Origin: Escherichia phage AV122
Direction: 5' to 3' (one strand)
Length of the DNA: 64,000 nt
Sequence record: OR352952.1
In this document: one piece after another, positions 48,907 through 54,052 of the stretch
Numbering within the stretch: the stretch's first letter is position 1
How the letters are laid out: each line of letters starts with the position of its first letter
The notes under the pieces: generated by a model
What the model saw: the letters and a program-made list of their open reading frames with translations, nothing else
Databases searched by the model: none
Told to the model about the DNA's origin: nothing
Translations under genes and position numbers: made by a program

Positions 48907-49590
48907 TTATCGTTTTGTTGGAAGAGATAGAGGATCGCACTCTTCCTCTGACGGAGCATCTTCAAGACCCATAGCATAGCGCAAAGCATACTTCATCATC
49001 AGGATGTCTTTCGCACAGTCATGAATAGAATCATGCGCAACGAATCCATCTAAGGTTCCCTTTGGAAGAGGACATGTTGTCATATCACGAACAAGCAGAA
49101 GTGCTTCAATTCTAGTACGAATATCACGCTGATTCCAGAATTTACATGGTTCTAACTTAAATGTATCAAGCTCATTCTCGGAAACGCCGTTAAGACGTTG
49201 AATATCGCGAATGAGATCGACTAAAATTGGAAAATCAAACGACATTCCACGGCACCAGCCTTGAGATTTCCAAGGATCGATATTATGCGCATTGATGTAA
49301 TCATTAAATTTTGCAATACCATCGATAGTGCTTACATCTTCATCGGATGGTGCAATATTTTTTCGAGCTTCAGGAGACTGATTTTTCCACCATTCGATAA
49401 TGCTTTTAGTAAAAAGACGATGTCCTTTTTGGCTTTTTAAATCAAATTTGATTTTAATGCCACGTGAAACTAGTTCATCGAATGATTCAACTACTTCTGG
49501 ATTAGGGTCAAAAGCAATTACAGCCAAATCAATAACAGCTGCTTTTTCACCGCTTCCCATTGTTTCAAAATCTATAATAAAATCAAACAT
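48907..49590 (-). CDS. dexA: exonuclease A (DEDDh family)
   Basis: 227 aa; DFET and H-x4-D exonuclease motifs. Confidence 0.85.
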   Translation of the reverse strand: MFDFIIDFETMGSGEKAAVIDLAVIAFDPNPEVVESFDELVSRGIKIKFDLKSQKGHRLFTKSIIEWWKNQSPEARKNIAPSDEDVSTIDGIAKFNDYINAHNIDPWKSQGWCRGMSFDFPILVDLIRDIQRLNGVSENELDTFKLEPCKFWNQRDIRTRIEALLLVRDMTTCPLPKGTLDGFVAHDSIHDCAKDILMMKYALRYAMGLEDAPSEEECDPLSLPTKR

Positions 49591-49847
49591 TAAATTTTCC
49601 TCGCTAAATCACGAATTTGGCCTACAGTATAGTCTTGAATATAAACTTTATTAATAGGCTCATCAATAAATTTTGCCATAGATTCAATATCTTTTTGCAT
49701 CTCTTCAAGACTGTATACTATCTTTAAAGCTTTTTCGCGAATAGTAACATTATCAGGTCCTGAATTTTCTTGAATGACAGCTTTAACATTTGCCATAAGA
49801 GATTTAAACTGGTACCAACTCAACTCAATCATTAATAATCGCCTCAT
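49590..49847 (-). CDS. hypothetical protein (dexA.x paralog 1)
   Basis: 85 aa. Confidence 0.55.
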   Translation of the reverse strand: MRRLLMIELSWYQFKSLMANVKAVIQENSGPDNVTIREKALKIVYSLEEMQKDIESMAKFIDEPINKVYIQDYTVGQIRDLARKI

Positions 49848-50085
49848 AAAGATAGCTAATTTCGCCTAAAACGTAATCATTGATTGTAACAGTTTTCACT
49901 TCACCACAAAAGAATTCTAACGCAATTAAATCTCGTTCAATTTCTTCTAATTGAAGCATCAACTTACTAGATTCAATTTTTACAGTTTCACGATTTTTAC
50001 CATGAGCAATTTCATAAATTTCGCTAACTTTATCCTGAAGAAGATAAAACTGATCTTTAGTTATTTCCACGAATAGCTTCCTCAA
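49825..50085 (-). CDS. hypothetical protein (dexA.x paralog 2)
   Basis: 86 aa; similar pattern to preceding ORF. Confidence 0.55.
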   Translation of the reverse strand: MRKLFVEITKDQFYLLQDKVSEIYEIAHGKNRETVKIESSKLMLQLEEIERDLIALEFFCGEVKTVTINDYVLGEISYLYEAIIND

Positions 50086-50317
50086 ATTTAATTAGTAATT
50101 TACAGACACTTTCATCTAGTGTAATTACCGTATCTGTATTACTGTGATATGATTGTTTTTCAATTCGTTTAATTGCTAATATAGTATCACTTATAAGATA
50201 AAGCTTGTGAAGGAGCTCAGCTCCTGTTACCATAACATCGAGATTATCTTGCTTATTAGTATGCTTCCTTATACCATCTATTAGACGATTTAAATATTTT
50301 GAATTGATGTTAATCAT
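50057..50317 (-). CDS. hypothetical protein (third small ORF between dexA and dda)
   Basis: 86 aa. Confidence 0.5.
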   Translation of the reverse strand: MININSKYLNRLIDGIRKHTNKQDNLDVMVTGAELLHKLYLISDTILAIKRIEKQSYHSNTDTVITLDESVCKLLIKFEEAIRGNN

Positions 50318-50323
50318 ATAGCC

Positions 50324-51643
50324 TCACACATAAAACACATCATAACGACCACGGGTAACACCAACATAAAGAAGTTGTTGGGCCAATTCAGCATCTGCAT
50401 AATGAATACAAGGCGTATAAATGAAAGCACGGTCTACAGACATACCCTGAGCTTTATGGAATGTTGATGCAGGAAGTGCTTTCACTTTACTAAACTGTGA
50501 TTTAGCATCCCAAAAATCACTCCACGGAGCTTTTCCGCCTTTGTTCCAATTTTTATAAGTTTCTGCCGTTTTACCTAAAAATAGGTTAAACTTATATAGC
50601 TCTTCATCAGATGAAATTATTTTAATCTTTTCACGATAATATTCATCATCGCCGTAAGTTTCTACTGTTAAATCCCAATGACGAATTAAGTATTCTCCAG
50701 GAACACCACGAGCTTTAACAAACGTTGATGTATACTCTGCTTCTATAATACGAACTAATTGTCCGTTATTAAAAATAATTTCTGACACAGGCTTTCCATC
50801 AATTTTATATGTTTTAATTAATGGTTCCTGCATTACAATAATTTCACCGACAATAAAATCTTTATCAGTTTCAAAAATCTTTTTACGAATAATGCTATTT
50901 AACTTGTCAACAGATTTATTCGTAAATGCCATTACGCGATTTTCAAACAAATCATCTAGTGATTTGACGATTGAAAAATAATTTACCATAAAATCGCGTA
51001 AAGCGGTATCACCAGTAAATCCACGTACTCCGTGCCCGTCAATGATTTTATCATAAATCCATTTACCATTACGAACATCAGTAGCTACATCAATAATAGG
51101 AGCATTACTGCGTTTAACTTCAGTAAGTTCACATTGATAAAAATCTTTATGTGTAAAGAATGGACTGATATAAGCAGTATTTTCTCCTGGATCAACAGGT
51201 CTAATTTGCTTATTATCACCTATTCCAATTATTGTGCACCACGGTGGAATAGTTGAAAGCAAAATTTTGAAGAGCTTTCTATCATACATTGACACTTCGT
51301 CGCAGATTAATACCCTGCATTTAGCTAAATCTGGTACTTCTTTTTGTTCAAAAAGAACGTTTTCTTCATACGTAACTGGGTTAATTTTAAGAATACTATG
51401 AATAGTACTTGCTTCTTTCCCTGATAGTTTTGAAAGAATCTTTTTAGCTGCATGAGTAGGAGCTGCTAAAATAATACCAGTTTCACCCGTAGATATTAAA
51501 GCTTCAATGATGAACTTAGTAAGAGTAGTCTTACCGGTACCGGCAGGTCCATTAATAGTTACATGGTGTTTCTTTTCTTTAATAGCCTTCATAACAATGT
51601 TAAAGGCATTTTTCTGGCCTTCGGTCAAATCATCAAATGTCAT
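50324..51643 (-). CDS. dda: Dda DNA helicase (SF1B)
   Basis: 439 aa; Walker A GPAGTGKT; recognised as T4 Dda. Confidence 0.95.
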   Translation of the reverse strand: MTFDDLTEGQKNAFNIVMKAIKEKKHHVTINGPAGTGKTTLTKFIIEALISTGETGIILAAPTHAAKKILSKLSGKEASTIHSILKINPVTYEENVLFEQKEVPDLAKCRVLICDEVSMYDRKLFKILLSTIPPWCTIIGIGDNKQIRPVDPGENTAYISPFFTHKDFYQCELTEVKRSNAPIIDVATDVRNGKWIYDKIIDGHGVRGFTGDTALRDFMVNYFSIVKSLDDLFENRVMAFTNKSVDKLNSIIRKKIFETDKDFIVGEIIVMQEPLIKTYKIDGKPVSEIIFNNGQLVRIIEAEYTSTFVKARGVPGEYLIRHWDLTVETYGDDEYYREKIKIISSDEELYKFNLFLGKTAETYKNWNKGGKAPWSDFWDAKSQFSKVKALPASTFHKAQGMSVDRAFIYTPCIHYADAELAQQLLYVGVTRGRYDVFYV

Positions 51644-51951
51644 CGTAAATTCCCTGCAATTGGTATACTAACAATACGCCCAGTATCTAGAATTCGTTGA
51701 TATAATCTTTGTGTATCTACATCAGGCTTAACATGTTTAACTTCTATTTTATTAAACCAAAACTTGCGTGGAGTCTCAACTAGTCTTGGAATTCCCATAC
51801 CTAAAGCTAGTTTATATTGGTCTTTGAGAGTAGTAAAAACTCTATCAGCAATCTCTCTTTCAAAAAACACAGCAGGACGATGTTCATCAAGTGGAACTGG
51901 CGCCGTAAATCCGTCTTTGTCTCGGTAAACTATCGCATATACATAAACCAT
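51640..51951 (-). CDS. hypothetical protein (dda.1 position)
   Basis: 103 aa. Confidence 0.6.
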   Translation of the reverse strand: MVYVYAIVYRDKDGFTAPVPLDEHRPAVFFEREIADRVFTTLKDQYKLALGMGIPRLVETPRKFWFNKIEVKHVKPDVDTQRLYQRILDTGRIVSIPIAGNLR

Positions 51952-51952
51952 A

Positions 51953-52708
51953 TTATCCTCGGATAAGTTTAAAAATTGAACAATTTAGCGGGTATCCTCT
52001 TTTCAGTTTAAGTTTATCAATAAAAGACAAATTTTGATACCGCTCTACACCTTGAATAATTTTATCACACATATCATATTGCATTTCTGCTTCTGACAGC
52101 TTTTTCACAATTTTCCAATCCGAGCCTTTAAGAAGAACGTTCAGTTTAACAACTTCAGCGCCTTCTGCTATGCGAGAACCATCAATACGAGCTTTAAGTG
52201 CTATAATCCTTAGCTTAATGTCAGAGGTCTGTTTTGATTTAGAAAGCTGAGAAATGTGTTCAATTCGATTTTCACGTTTTTTCTGTATAGCTTTAATTTG
52301 ATTATAAGTCTTTTTGATTTTAGCCCATTTCTTTTCATCTAAATTTAGTTTATGAACTTTTTTCGCAGATGAACGACCAATTCGCAAAGCAAATAAATCC
52401 CGTTTTTCAATCAACTCTTCTAAAGTATAATCAGAACGAAATGTATTATACTTTTTCTTTACTGCAATAACATTCCCTTTAATGTATCCAATGTTATTAT
52501 CAAAACGTTCTAATGATAATTTCTCTCCTTCAATACGATTATCAAAAGGTTCTCCTGAATAGGCACAAACTTTTTGATCTAAAATATTCTTAATGTAATT
52601 GAAGTCTAAGTTAAAATCTTTAGAACGTCTTTTTGCAGATGCCTGAGTATGCTCTAAACGACGTTTAATTTTACGAATTTGATTATTAGACATATTATGC
52701 AGTTTCAT
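51953..52708 (-). CDS. hypothetical basic protein with degenerate HNH-like motif
   Basis: 251 aa; CAYSGEPF...LSLERFDNNIGYIKGNVIAV resembles HNH core with substitutions; own early promoter 52744-52773. Confidence 0.6.
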   Translation of the reverse strand: MKLHNMSNNQIRKIKRRLEHTQASAKRRSKDFNLDFNYIKNILDQKVCAYSGEPFDNRIEGEKLSLERFDNNIGYIKGNVIAVKKKYNTFRSDYTLEELIEKRDLFALRIGRSSAKKVHKLNLDEKKWAKIKKTYNQIKAIQKKRENRIEHISQLSKSKQTSDIKLRIIALKARIDGSRIAEGAEVVKLNVLLKGSDWKIVKKLSEAEMQYDMCDKIIQGVERYQNLSFIDKLKLKRGYPLNCSIFKLIRG

Positions 52709-52743
52709 ATTTTTCTCACATCTTACGGACGATTGACTACTAT

Positions 52744-52773
52744 ACTATAACATTTTTACCTTGGCTTGTAAAC
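52744..52773 (-). promoter_or_regulatory. early promoter upstream of 251-aa ORF
   Basis: GTTTACA, 17 nt, TATAGT. Confidence 0.55.
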
Positions 52774-52829: not shown

Positions 52830-53432
52830 TTATAGATTAAATCCTTCAAAATCAAGAGTATAGATAGTGTATGTTGAATACTTTTTGTACTCATATCTAT
52901 CTGCAATTCTAAATACACTTCCAGCTGGTATCATTACTTCTTGTTCATCTGAAACTAATTCCATATTACGATAACGATGACTATCCGGAAACTTAAAGTT
53001 TGGATTGTATTCTTTACAGCGTAGAGCTTTTATAGCATACTCCTGGAAATTGAATACCATAGGAGCTTTGAATTCAAAAATAACCTGTGTGTTATACTCT
53101 AAACCGGAAGCAAAATGTAGAGCTATATTTTTATCATATGAAGCTGATACGACTTTATCAAATGTAATAATATCAATTCCTTGATTTAATACTTGCTTAG
53201 TCTCAGCTGGAACACCTCTCCAAAGAGGTTTATCGTTTGGAACCAAACGAGATTTGATTATTTCATTTAACCAAGTATGGTCATCTGGCTTATTAGTAAT
53301 ACAATGAATTAAAAGTTCAATTTCAGATAAATTAAACCCTTCAGAAAGTAATTCTTCACGAATAGAAGCACGCACCGATGCATCCATTGATTTTATTTTA
53401 AAATCTTTTAGTTGCATTACTGAGTATTTCAT
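52830..53432 (-). CDS. modA: ADP-ribosyltransferase ModA
   Basis: 200 aa; R (LWRG), STS-like (SAS) and EQE catalytic motifs. Confidence 0.8.
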   Translation of the reverse strand: MKYSVMQLKDFKIKSMDASVRASIREELLSEGFNLSEIELLIHCITNKPDDHTWLNEIIKSRLVPNDKPLWRGVPAETKQVLNQGIDIITFDKVVSASYDKNIALHFASGLEYNTQVIFEFKAPMVFNFQEYAIKALRCKEYNPNFKFPDSHRYRNMELVSDEQEVMIPAGSVFRIADRYEYKKYSTYTIYTLDFEGFNL

Positions 53433-54052
53433 TCAACTACCTCAATATCATAAACTTTAAATGTTCCAAATGAATCGTGTAATTTTTCTTTTGAAATAGA
53501 AGTTATTCTATACTTTCCAATTGGAATCATCCATTCTTGTTCATGTACAATCATCATTAAGTTATCAGTACGCTCTGAATCTAATCCATCAGTGTCTTCA
53601 TACGTGTACTTAAACTCAGTATTAGGAGAAGAAAGTATAATATCGCTGATATGGTCAGAGTAATTAAAAGCTTTATTAGTTTTTAAGCGAAGTATTATTT
53701 TAGTAAAATATTCAGCGTAAGAAAAAGAACACGCTGTATGCAAACTAGTAGTAAATGAATCTACCCTGTTCGTTGAAAACACTTCTCCAACTTGTAAATC
53801 TTTAATGAGTTCTTTTGTCGATTTTGATATACCACGATATAACTGATAAGGCGATTTAGTTAAATGCTTTTTAATGATTTTATTCAACTGTCTGTGAAGA
53901 GCTTCATTCTTTTTGGCTTCCATACATTGCCAAAGAACAGACTGCTCAAAGTCAGTAAATTTTTCACAGACTTTTTTATACATATCATATTGAAAATCAA
54001 CGCTTTCAGCTTTTATAGATAACTGTTCAACATCTGCAGGATTAATAATCAT
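53429..54052 (-). CDS. modB: ADP-ribosyltransferase ModB
   Basis: 207 aa; LYRG, FST, EQEWMIP motifs; tandem paralog of modA. Confidence 0.8.
   Translation of the reverse strand: MIINPADVEQLSIKAESVDFQYDMYKKVCEKFTDFEQSVLWQCMEAKKNEALHRQLNKIIKKHLTKSPYQLYRGISKSTKELIKDLQVGEVFSTNRVDSFTTSLHTACSFSYAEYFTKIILRLKTNKAFNYSDHISDIILSSPNTEFKYTYEDTDGLDSERTDNLMMIVHEQEWMIPIGKYRITSISKEKLHDSFGTFKVYDIEVVE

What the first reader, a model, noticed from the sequence alone, without database searches (positions are those of the whole stretch)
51953..52773. 251-aa basic ORF with degenerate HNH-like motif and its own early promoter
Between dda.1 and modA sits a stand-alone 251-aa ORF preceded by a consensus early promoter. 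Its N-terminal region (CAYSGEPF...LSLERFDNNIGYIKGNVIAV) resembles the HNH nuclease core with substituted catalytic residues, followed by a long Lys/Arg-rich helical tail. It could be a free-standing homing-endonuclease relic (mob-like) or a domesticated DNA-binding protein.
Basis: inference. Interest (0 to 1): 0.5.

Follow-up and report, generated by a model that had tools for sequence, protein, structure and literature searches.

The report
Known T4 gene srd, PacI-like domain
This ORF is the already-described phage T4 early gene srd, whose product speeds host mRNA decay through RNase E; the only new point is that its N-terminal third is a PacI-type HNH nuclease fold with that enzyme's catalytic residues still in place, which the database label 'anti-sigma factor' hides.

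Summary
A 251-aa, pI 10 ORF lies at 51953-52708 (minus strand) between dda.1 and modA, behind a T4-early-type promoter (GTTTACA, 17 nt, TG-extended TATAGT). It is not an unknown gene. It is srd, 244/246 identical to T4 Srd, and it sits at the same locus in relatives as distant as Acinetobacter phage Ac42. Published work says Srd binds the catalytic half of RNase E and stimulates host mRNA decay, and that it is toxic when expressed alone.

The homing-endonuclease-relic reading is refuted by conserved synteny. The sigma-decoy annotation gets no profile support. Whether Srd actually cleaves nucleic acid is untested.

Verdict: known gene, with a modest and testable new structural lead.

The parts
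52744..52773 (-). T4-early-type sigma-70 promoter: G-TTTACA (52773-52767), 17-nt spacer, TG-extended -10 TATAGT (52749-52744), with an A/T-rich stretch upstream
   Evidence: The hexamers are identical in T4 while the spacer differs. No promoter feature is annotated in the T4 records, so function is inferred.
52714..52717 (-). Shine-Dalgarno-like GAGA, 6 nt before the ATG
   Evidence: Read directly from the sequence; inference only.
51953..52708 (-). srd coding sequence, 251 codons plus stop (51953-51955)
   Evidence: 244/246 identical to T4 Srd. phrog_1400 'Srd anti-sigma factor' at E 1.6e-108. 97-99% nucleotide identity to srd in about 500 Tequatrovirus records.
52691..52699 (-). 9-bp in-frame insertion (His-Asn-Met, codons 4-6) relative to T4 srd. 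Exact placement within the local repeat is ambiguous.
   Evidence: The same N-terminus occurs in Yersinia phage fPS-2.
52373..52687 (-). N-terminal PacI-type His-Me finger domain, residues 8-112: two helices, the beta-beta-alpha core, then a capping helix
52433..52519 (-). beta-beta-alpha-metal core, residues 64-92: LSL-E67-R68-F-D70-N71-NI-G74-Y75-IKG-N79-VIAVKKKY-N88-TF-R91
   Evidence: Ungapped match to PacI D92 R93 D95 S96 G99 Y100 N104 N113 K116. E67, R68, Y75, N79 and N88 are invariant in 16 orthologues. In 160 distant copies R is 158/160, Y 160/160, N79 160/160 and N88 159/160.
52034..52336 (-). Variable, Lys/Arg-rich region of three long helices, residues 125-225
51956..52033 (-). Conserved C-terminal tail, residues 226-251 (NLSFIDKLKLKRGYPLNCSIFKLIRG). 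The last 9 residues are predicted with low confidence. Candidate partner-docking peptide.
   Evidence: 58% identity to the farthest orthologue, as conserved as the N-domain. pLDDT below 50 for 243-251. The docking role is inference.

Best explanation
This is srd, a non-essential early gene of T4-like phages. It is transcribed from its own sigma-70 early promoter, and by read-through from upstream, as the first gene of an srd-dda.1-dda unit.

The 29-kDa basic product is a host-takeover factor. According to published experiments on the 99%-identical T4 protein, it associates with the N-terminal catalytic half of E. coli RNase E and accelerates decay of host mRNAs.

This analysis shows the protein has two modules:
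- Residues about 8-112 form a PacI-type His-Me (HNH) finger. The usual catalytic His is Arg68. The PacI catalytic set is intact: metal ligands Glu67 and Asn88, and the omega-loop Tyr75. The Cys4 zinc sites are gone.
- Residues about 125-251 form a poorly conserved basic helical region that ends in a strongly conserved, probably disordered tail.

Inferred mechanism: the N-domain is the nucleic-acid-engaging, metal-binding module, and it possibly cleaves. The helices and tail mediate self-association or docking to RNase E. In this way Srd delivers or prepares RNA for RNase E.

What is shown: gene identity, fold, motif conservation and synteny. What comes from the literature: RNase E binding and stimulation, and toxicity. 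What is inferred: the division of labour between modules and any catalysis.
For: Identity:
- 244/246 identical to T4 Srd.
- Annotated srd in hundreds of records.
- phrog_1400 at E 1.6e-108.
- Same locus in T4, Klebsiella Jiaodavirus and Acinetobacter phage Ac42.

Function from the literature:
- Srd binds the RNase E N-terminal half and stimulates host mRNA decay (Qi et al. 2015, cited in PMC4980113, PMC7430671, PMC13232886).
- srd impairs E. coli growth when expressed alone (PMC6070864).

Fold:
- N-domain model with pLDDT 91.
- Family profile against PacI: E 6.5e-4 at PDB-size Z, and hhalign 93% probability.
- PacI and Srd hit the same PHROGs, 1035, 3322 and 3118.

Active site:
- Ungapped correspondence to PacI D92/R93/Y100/N104/N113.
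- In PacI the His is absent, a Tyr in the omega loop replaces it, and Asp and Asn bind the metal (PMC5714182; PMC4081073).
- These residues are invariant in Srd orthologues and about 99% conserved in the wider family.
Against: - No nuclease or nucleic-acid-binding assay of Srd is known to me or found in the held literature.
- The primary paper (Qi 2015) could not be read here, so its claims are second-hand.
- Both PacI Cys4 zinc sites are missing: C63/C66/C109/C112 correspond to C48/S51/K84/Y87. This could compromise the fold or activity.
- The reported effect on mRNA depends on RNase E. That is equally compatible with a purely protein-protein activator.
- Which module binds RNase E is unknown.
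Confidence: 0.8

Rival explanations
1. Srd is a catalytically active, Tyr-dependent PacI-type nuclease. Its own cuts in host RNA (or in cytosine-containing host DNA) are the primary event. HNH-type cleavage leaves 5'-phosphate ends, which would activate the 5'-end-dependent pathway of RNase E. The outcome would therefore look RNase E-dependent.
For: - The PacI catalytic set (D/E, omega-loop Y, N) and the structural Asn are invariant in Srd orthologues. They are 98-100% conserved in 160 distant domain copies. That pattern is typical of enzymes rather than inactivated relics.
- His-to-Arg and the loop Tyr co-occur, as in PacI.
- Larger relatives carry 2-4 tandem copies, like a covalent version of the PacI dimer.
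- srd is toxic when expressed alone (PMC6070864).
Against: - No activity has been reported.
- The zinc sites are lost.
- The literature describes the effect as stimulation of RNase E through binding to its catalytic half.
- T4 already has dedicated host-DNA nucleases. This point rests on established T4 knowledge and was not tested here.
Confidence: 0.3
2. Srd is a pure protein-protein activator or adaptor of RNase E, comparable in logic to RapZ. The His-Me finger is retained only as a non-catalytic scaffold or nucleic-acid clamp.
For: - Literature statements that Srd associates with the RNase E N-terminal half and raises its activity.
- Precedents exist for inactive His-Me fingers: groups 16 and 21 in PMC5714182.
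- Loss of the zinc sites.
Against: - The inactive His-Me groups described in PMC5714182 have lost both the His and the equivalent Tyr. Srd keeps Tyr and both metal ligands, and they are invariant over 39-98% identity.
- The most conserved parts of Srd are exactly the catalytic core and the C-terminal tail.
Confidence: 0.4
3. Srd is an anti-sigma factor, or decoy, of sigma-70 or sigma-S. This is the database annotation, based on a postulated resemblance to sigma.
For: - Annotation in T4 and hundreds of relatives.
- BLASTP finds one 30-residue patch, Srd 92-121 against RpoD 569-598 in region 4.2, at 43% identity and E 0.008 for that single comparison.
Against: - No Pfam sigma-70 region model matches, even at E 10.
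- Profile against RpoD gives hhalign probability 0.2%.
- The patch lies in the helix that caps the His-Me domain. That helix is a conserved part of the nuclease-fold family and also aligns with PacI.
- I found no experimental support in the held literature.
Confidence: 0.05
4. It is a relic of a free-standing homing endonuclease (mob- or seg-like).
For: - HNH-superfamily fold.
- Relatives in other phages are short stand-alone proteins annotated as HNH endonucleases.
- PacI-like HNH genes occur as presumptive homing endonucleases in Skunavirus (PMC12724721).
Against: - The gene and its srd-dda.1-dda synteny are conserved from T4 to Klebsiella and Acinetobacter phages. It occurs in more than 1300 phage records, unlike sporadic mobile endonucleases.
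- Active-site residues are invariant rather than decaying.
- No HNH_3, AP2 or NUMOD Pfam match.
- It has a host-directed function in the literature.
Confidence: 0.03

Closest known systems
Bacteriophage T4 Srd (NP_049634; gene srd, between dda.1 and modA)
   Same: 244/246 identical residues, same neighbours, same promoter hexamers. It is the same gene.
   Different: Three extra residues (His-Asn-Met) after residue 3, from a 9-bp insertion, and two substitutions.
Restriction endonuclease PacI (PDB 3ldy/3m7k; His-Me finger group 20 of Jablonska et al. 2017)
   Same: - Same atypical motif, (D/E)-R-x-D-x3-G-Y-x3-N-x8-N-x2-(K/R), aligned without gaps.
- The His is absent and a Tyr sits in the omega loop.
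- Neither protein reaches any Pfam HNH threshold.
   Different: - PacI has two Cys4 zinc sites. Srd keeps only one of those eight Cys-equivalent positions that could be aligned (C48), and it has helices where PacI has its N-terminal zinc ribbon.
- PacI is a 142-aa dimeric DNA restriction enzyme. Srd carries a 140-aa helical extension and has no shown nuclease activity.
- Sequence identity is about 15-17%.
Canonical HNH nucleases (Gme HNH 4h9d, Hpy99I, EcoKMcrA, Cas9 HNH domain, T4 endonuclease VII)
   Different: The general-base His is Arg in Srd and the CxxC pairs are lost. Pfam HNH models do not match.
RapZ, adaptor-activator of RNase E in E. coli
   Same: Functional analogy only. Both are reported to act through the catalytic N-terminal half of RNase E to speed RNA cleavage (PMC7430671; PMC13232886).
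   Different: Unrelated fold, with no sequence or structure relationship found here. RapZ targets one sRNA, whereas Srd is reported to act broadly on host mRNAs.

Membership tests
T4 Srd orthologous group | High full-length sequence similarity to T4 Srd | tested here: met
   244/246 identity. phrog_1400 at E 1.6e-108 over residues 6-251.
T4 Srd orthologous group | Position between modA and dda.1-dda in the early region, same strand | tested here: met
   The srd-dda.1-dda order is also kept in Klebsiella phage 15882-6 and Acinetobacter phage Ac42.
T4 Srd orthologous group | Binds the RNase E N-terminal half and stimulates host mRNA decay | not testable with these tools
   Reported for T4 Srd by Qi et al. 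2015, as cited in PMC4980113, PMC7430671 and PMC13232886. Transferred here by 99% identity.
His-Me finger (HNH, beta-beta-alpha-metal) superfamily | beta-hairpin plus alpha-helix core fold | tested here: met
   [not shown]
His-Me finger (HNH, beta-beta-alpha-metal) superfamily | Catalytic general-base His at the end of strand 1 | tested here: not met
   Arg68 occupies this position. It is Arg in 158 of 160 distant family copies.
His-Me finger (HNH, beta-beta-alpha-metal) superfamily | Metal ligands: an acidic residue before the His position and Asn or His in the helix; plus a structural Asn in the hairpin | tested here: met
   E67 (E or D in 159/160), N88 (159/160) and N79 (160/160).
His-Me finger (HNH, beta-beta-alpha-metal) superfamily | Match to curated HNH profile models (Pfam HNH, HNH_3, HNH_5, Endonuclease_7) | tested here: not met
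   No such hit for Srd at E up to 10. None for 46 family members at E 0.01. PacI itself also fails, with HNH at E 0.027, below the cut-off.
PacI-like His-Me fingers (group 20) | His replaced, with a Tyr in the omega loop positioned as base or nucleophile | tested here: met
   Y75 aligns with PacI Y100, the only Tyr in the PacI loop 94-104. Y is 160/160 in the family. The role of the Tyr in PacI comes from PMC5714182 and PMC4081073. Model geometry was not inspected.
PacI-like His-Me fingers (group 20) | Detectable sequence or profile homology to PacI | tested here: met
   [not shown]
PacI-like His-Me fingers (group 20) | Two structural Cys4 zinc sites | tested here: not met
   PacI C63/C66/C109/C112 correspond to Srd C48/S51/K84/Y87. 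The N-terminal zinc ribbon of PacI is replaced by helices 8-27 and 36-43.
PacI-like His-Me fingers (group 20) | Metal-dependent endonuclease activity | not testable with these tools
   No assay is available and none was found in the held literature.
Sigma-70 family / anti-sigma decoy (the current annotation) | Homology to sigma-70 conserved regions | tested here: not met
   No Pfam Sigma70_r1-r4 hit. hhalign against E. coli RpoD gives probability 0.2%. Only a 30-aa patch was found, at E 0.008 for a single comparison.
Sigma-70 family / anti-sigma decoy (the current annotation) | Binding to sigma or core RNA polymerase | not testable with these tools
   No supporting experiment was found in the held literature.
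Free-standing phage homing endonucleases (mob/seg-like) | Sporadic presence or absence between close relatives, with insertion between conserved genes | tested here: not met
   Present in 497 of 500 megablast-matched records at full length, and syntenic across subfamilies.

The most novel reading that the evidence does not exclude
Srd, labelled 'anti-sigma factor' in more than a thousand phage genomes, is in fact an active Tyr-dependent PacI-type nuclease. It belongs to a very large phage family not covered by Pfam. Its own metal-dependent cuts leave 5'-phosphate ends, and these are what trigger RNase E-dependent collapse of host mRNA. T4 host shut-off would then use a phage HNH-fold nuclease upstream of RNase E rather than a simple protein activator.
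Probability: 0.25. Interest if true: 0.65.

Novelty: already known. Interest (0 to 1): 0.33.

Why it matters
The gene itself is textbook T4 (srd), so the finding does not uncover a new element.

The value lies in two corrections. First, the widespread 'anti-sigma factor / sigma decoy' label has no profile-level support. Second, the N-terminal domain is a PacI-type His-Me finger whose catalytic Asp/Glu-Tyr-Asn set is under strict conservation.

How Srd stimulates RNase E is not explained in any paper I could read. This assignment turns the question into a three-point-mutant experiment (E67A, Y75F, N88A).

It may also enlarge the PacI-like group, described in 2017 as a small and mostly giant-virus group. 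Here the domain is seen in more than 1,300 phage genome records, and the metagenomic hit list may run to thousands of clusters, although that count was made with the full-length profile.

I found no paper linking Srd to HNH or PacI. However, PHROG cross-hits and a few GenBank 'HNH endonuclease' labels on orthologues show the link is within reach of routine tools.

Tried and rejected
- Pfam, NCBIfam and PADLOC scans of Srd gave nothing significant.
- PDB sequence search with the single protein returned no hits. The full-length profile returned only coiled-coil noise such as TrwJ/TraC and ATP synthase b.
- The A4 profile against the PDB with default filters listed Gme HNH only at E 0.12 and did not list PacI. 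PacI was recovered only with a domain-only profile using --max, and with hhalign.
- The afdb50 fold library was unavailable.
- Qi et al. 2015 and Shen et al. 2010 are not held. Their content is cited second-hand.
- The supplements of the His-Me classification paper are not held. I therefore could not check whether Srd was already placed in group 20.
- Multi-domain relatives gave no informative Pfam partner domains beyond one HTH.
- No second copy of the domain exists in the window.
- Sigma-70 homology was tested and rejected.
- The homing-endonuclease relic reading was rejected on synteny.
- I noticed from memory that the C-terminal ...S-I-F-K-L-I-R-G tail loosely resembles clamp-binding peptides. 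This was not tested and is not claimed.

Full report

Yes. The ORF listing gives a 251-aa ATG ORF at 51953..52708 on the minus strand. It is flanked on the same strand by a 439-aa helicase ORF (dda, 50324-51643), a 103-aa ORF (dda.1, 51640-51951) and two about 200-aa ORFs (modA 52830-53432, modB 53429-54052).

The protein is basic: pI 9.99, with 57 K+R against 30 D+E. The quoted motif lies at residues 48-83.

Upstream on the coding strand the sequence reads AAAATTGTTTACAAGCCAAGGTAAAAATGTTATAGTATAG. That is G-TTTACA, a 17-nt spacer and a TG-extended TATAGT, at 52773-52744.

The consensus scan alone is weak evidence in such AT-rich DNA (12 sites found against 9.3 +/- 3.2 in shuffles). However, in the alignment with T4 both hexamers and the TG are identical while three spacer bases differ. 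The GTTTAC -35 form is the T4 early-promoter type, which I state from established T4 knowledge. No promoter feature is annotated in either T4 record.

The ORF is not transcriptionally isolated. Its stop codon is one base from the dda.1 start codon, and no minus-strand terminator-like site was found nearby.

**2. What is it?**

It is gene srd of a T4-type phage.
- Megablast finds the ORF at 95-99% identity in about 500 Tequatrovirus records. There it is annotated 'Srd anti-sigma factor' or 'postulated decoy of host sigma70 or sigmaS'.
- In T4 itself srd lies between dda.1 and modA, and the proteins are 244/246 identical.
- The window copy has a 9-bp in-frame insertion (His-Asn-Met) after codon 3. 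Yersinia phage fPS-2 shares this.
- tblastn with the N-terminal 112 residues finds the gene in 1306 phage records.
- The order srd-dda.1-dda...dexA is kept in a Klebsiella Jiaodavirus and in Acinetobacter phage Ac42 of another subfamily.

**3. What is known about it?**

The primary paper (Qi, Alawneh, Yonesaki and Otsuka 2015, Genetics 201:977) is not held. Three held papers summarise it. Srd binds the N-terminal catalytic half of RNase E and increases its activity on host mRNA, which accelerates host mRNA decay (PMC4980113; PMC7430671; PMC13232886).

PMC6070864 records that srd lies in a dispensable region and impairs E. coli growth when expressed heterologously, citing Mosig et al. 1998.

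The anti-sigma label goes back to a postulated resemblance to sigma factors.

**4. The sigma resemblance tested**

- No Pfam sigma-70 region model matches Srd, even at E 10.
- BLASTP against E. coli RpoD gives one 30-residue patch: Srd 92-121 against RpoD 569-598, 43% identity, E 0.008 for that single comparison.
- The orthologue profile against RpoD gives an hhalign probability of 0.2%.
- The patch falls in the helix that caps the nuclease-fold domain. That helix is conserved across the domain family and also aligns with PacI.

I regard the sigma-decoy annotation as unsupported.

**5. The HNH-like motif**

Curated models see nothing: Pfam, NCBIfam and PDB sequence searches were all negative. 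PHROGs does connect Srd to nuclease families. Besides phrog_1400 (Srd), residues about 6-160 match phrog_3322 'endonuclease' (1e-18), phrog_3118 'HNH endonuclease' (1e-16) and phrog_1035 'endonuclease VII' (2e-7).

An exhaustive profile search with 16 orthologues found 5469 cluster representatives at E <= 1e-3 and 340 at <= 1e-10. Some of the weak ones may be coiled-coil matches. In nearly all of the best 150, the matched part is the N-terminal about 100 residues. This domain occurs alone, at either end of larger proteins, or in 2-4 tandem copies.

In 160 domain copies from proteins outside the close Srd clade, the motif is almost invariant:

| Position | Conservation in 160 copies |
|---|---|
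| C48 | 158 |
| S/T51 | 158 |
| G52 | 149 |
| E/D67 | 159 |
| R68 | 158 |
| D/N70 | 158 |
| G74 | 157 |
| Y75 | 160 |
| N79 | 160 |
| N88 | 159 |
| R/K91 | 135 |

So Arg at the 'His' position is a trait of the whole family, not a decay specific to Srd.

**6. Fold**

A model of residues 1-114, built with a 54-sequence alignment, reached pLDDT 91.2 and pTM 0.74. It has helices 8-27 and 36-43, strands 64-68 and 80-84, and helices 85-92 and 96-112.

Foldseek against viral models finds 91 relatives at E <= 1e-3. Most are labelled 'anti-sigma factor' or uncharacterised, and a few 'HNH' or 'restriction endonuclease'.

**7. Why PacI matters**

PacI is the documented HNH enzyme without the catalytic His. 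A Tyr in the omega loop takes over, and the metal is held by one Asp and one Asn (PMC5714182, group 20; PMC4081073).

I verified the PacI sequence against the PDB copy. From D92 to K116 it aligns with Srd E67 to R91 without a gap:

| PacI | Srd |
|---|---|
| D92 | E67 |
| R93 | R68 |
| D95 | D70 |
| S96 | N71 |
| G99 | G74 |
| Y100 | Y75 |
| N104 | N79 |
| N113 | N88 |
| K116 | R91 |

Y100 is the only Tyr in the PacI loop 94-104.

Statistics:
- The domain-family HMM scores PacI at E 6.5e-4 for a PDB-sized search.
- hhalign gives 93.2% probability and E 2.8e-7 over 89 columns. That alignment includes the helix before the core and the capping helix after it.
- PacI hits the same PHROGs as Srd: 1035 at 2.5e-11, 3322 at 1.5e-4 and 3118 at 1.7e-3.
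- Like Srd, PacI reaches no Pfam threshold.

What is not shared is the zinc. The PacI site C63/C66/C109/C112 corresponds to C48/S51/K84/Y87 in Srd, and the N-terminal zinc ribbon is replaced by helices.

**8. Conservation within Srd**

Across 16 orthologues (39-98% identity) the N-domain has 36 invariant positions out of 93. These include E67, R68, Y75, N79 and N88. The three helices have 9 of 101. The last 26 residues are again conserved, at 58% identity to the farthest orthologue against 23% for the helices. The very end is predicted with low confidence, as expected for a docking peptide.

**9. Most likely mechanism**

Shown here: the identity as srd, the PacI-type fold, the intact catalytic set and the conserved synteny.

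Taken from the literature: binding to the RNase E catalytic half, stimulation of host mRNA decay, and toxicity.

Inferred: the N-domain is the metal- and nucleic-acid-engaging module, while the helices and tail provide oligomerisation and partner docking.

Two versions compete. In one, Srd is a non-cleaving adaptor or activator (about 0.4). In the other, Srd really cuts, leaving 5'-phosphate ends that feed the 5'-end-dependent mode of RNase E (about 0.3).
- The strict conservation of Asp/Glu-Tyr-Asn favours catalysis. So does the contrast with the His-Me groups described as inactive in PMC5714182, which have lost both His and Tyr.
- The lost zinc sites and the reported RNase E dependence favour the adaptor version.
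- Tandem copies in larger relatives fit a domain that works as a dimer, like PacI.

**10. Novelty and verdict**

The gene and its role are already known.

I found no held paper that links Srd to HNH or PacI. However, PHROG cross-hits and occasional 'HNH endonuclease' labels on orthologues, for example Klebsiella phage Roth66, show that routine tools reach this link. PacI-like phage HNH genes are a recognised class (PMC12724721).

The finding is therefore ordinary as a discovery. It carries a modest, concrete lead: the anti-sigma label is probably wrong, and three point mutations would test whether a PacI-type active site underlies T4's RNase E-dependent host mRNA shut-off.

Noticed in passing
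window 50057-50317 (-): An 86-aa ORF sits between the dexA.2 homologue and dda. It has no counterpart in T4, where dexA.2 and dda are 21 bp apart. It shows no similarity to dexA.1 or dexA.2.
   Followed up: partly
window 49590-49847 (-) and 49825-50085 (-): The dexA.1 and dexA.2 homologues are paralogues of each other, at about 29% identity and E 1e-7 to 4e-9. This looks like a tandem duplication of a small early gene.
   Followed up: partly
L001 644-889 (T4 NC_000866 9143-9388): RefSeq names the 81-aa dexA.2 product 'dextranase'. This is evidently an annotation artefact derived from the gene name.
   Followed up: no
window 52691-52699 (-): A 9-bp in-frame insertion (CATAATATG, His-Asn-Met) lies near the start of srd relative to T4. 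It creates a second in-frame ATG at codon 6. Yersinia phage fPS-2 shares it.
   Followed up: partly
proteins P0063, P0116, P0120, P0136, P0112, P0118 (relatives): Larger relatives contain 2-4 tandem copies of the Srd/PacI-type domain; P0063, at 852 aa, has four. P0124 adds an HTH. None has a Pfam nuclease annotation.
   Followed up: partly
window 51956-52033 (-), Srd residues 226-251: The C-terminal tail (...KLKLKRGYPLNCSIFKLIRG) is strongly conserved and predicted disordered at its end. Its partner is unknown. It may be the RNase E docking element.
   Followed up: no
window 52404-52431 (+): A promoter-like site lies on the opposite strand inside srd (TTTTCA, 16 nt, TATAAT, 10 of 12 matches). 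It is probably chance in AT-rich DNA.
   Followed up: no
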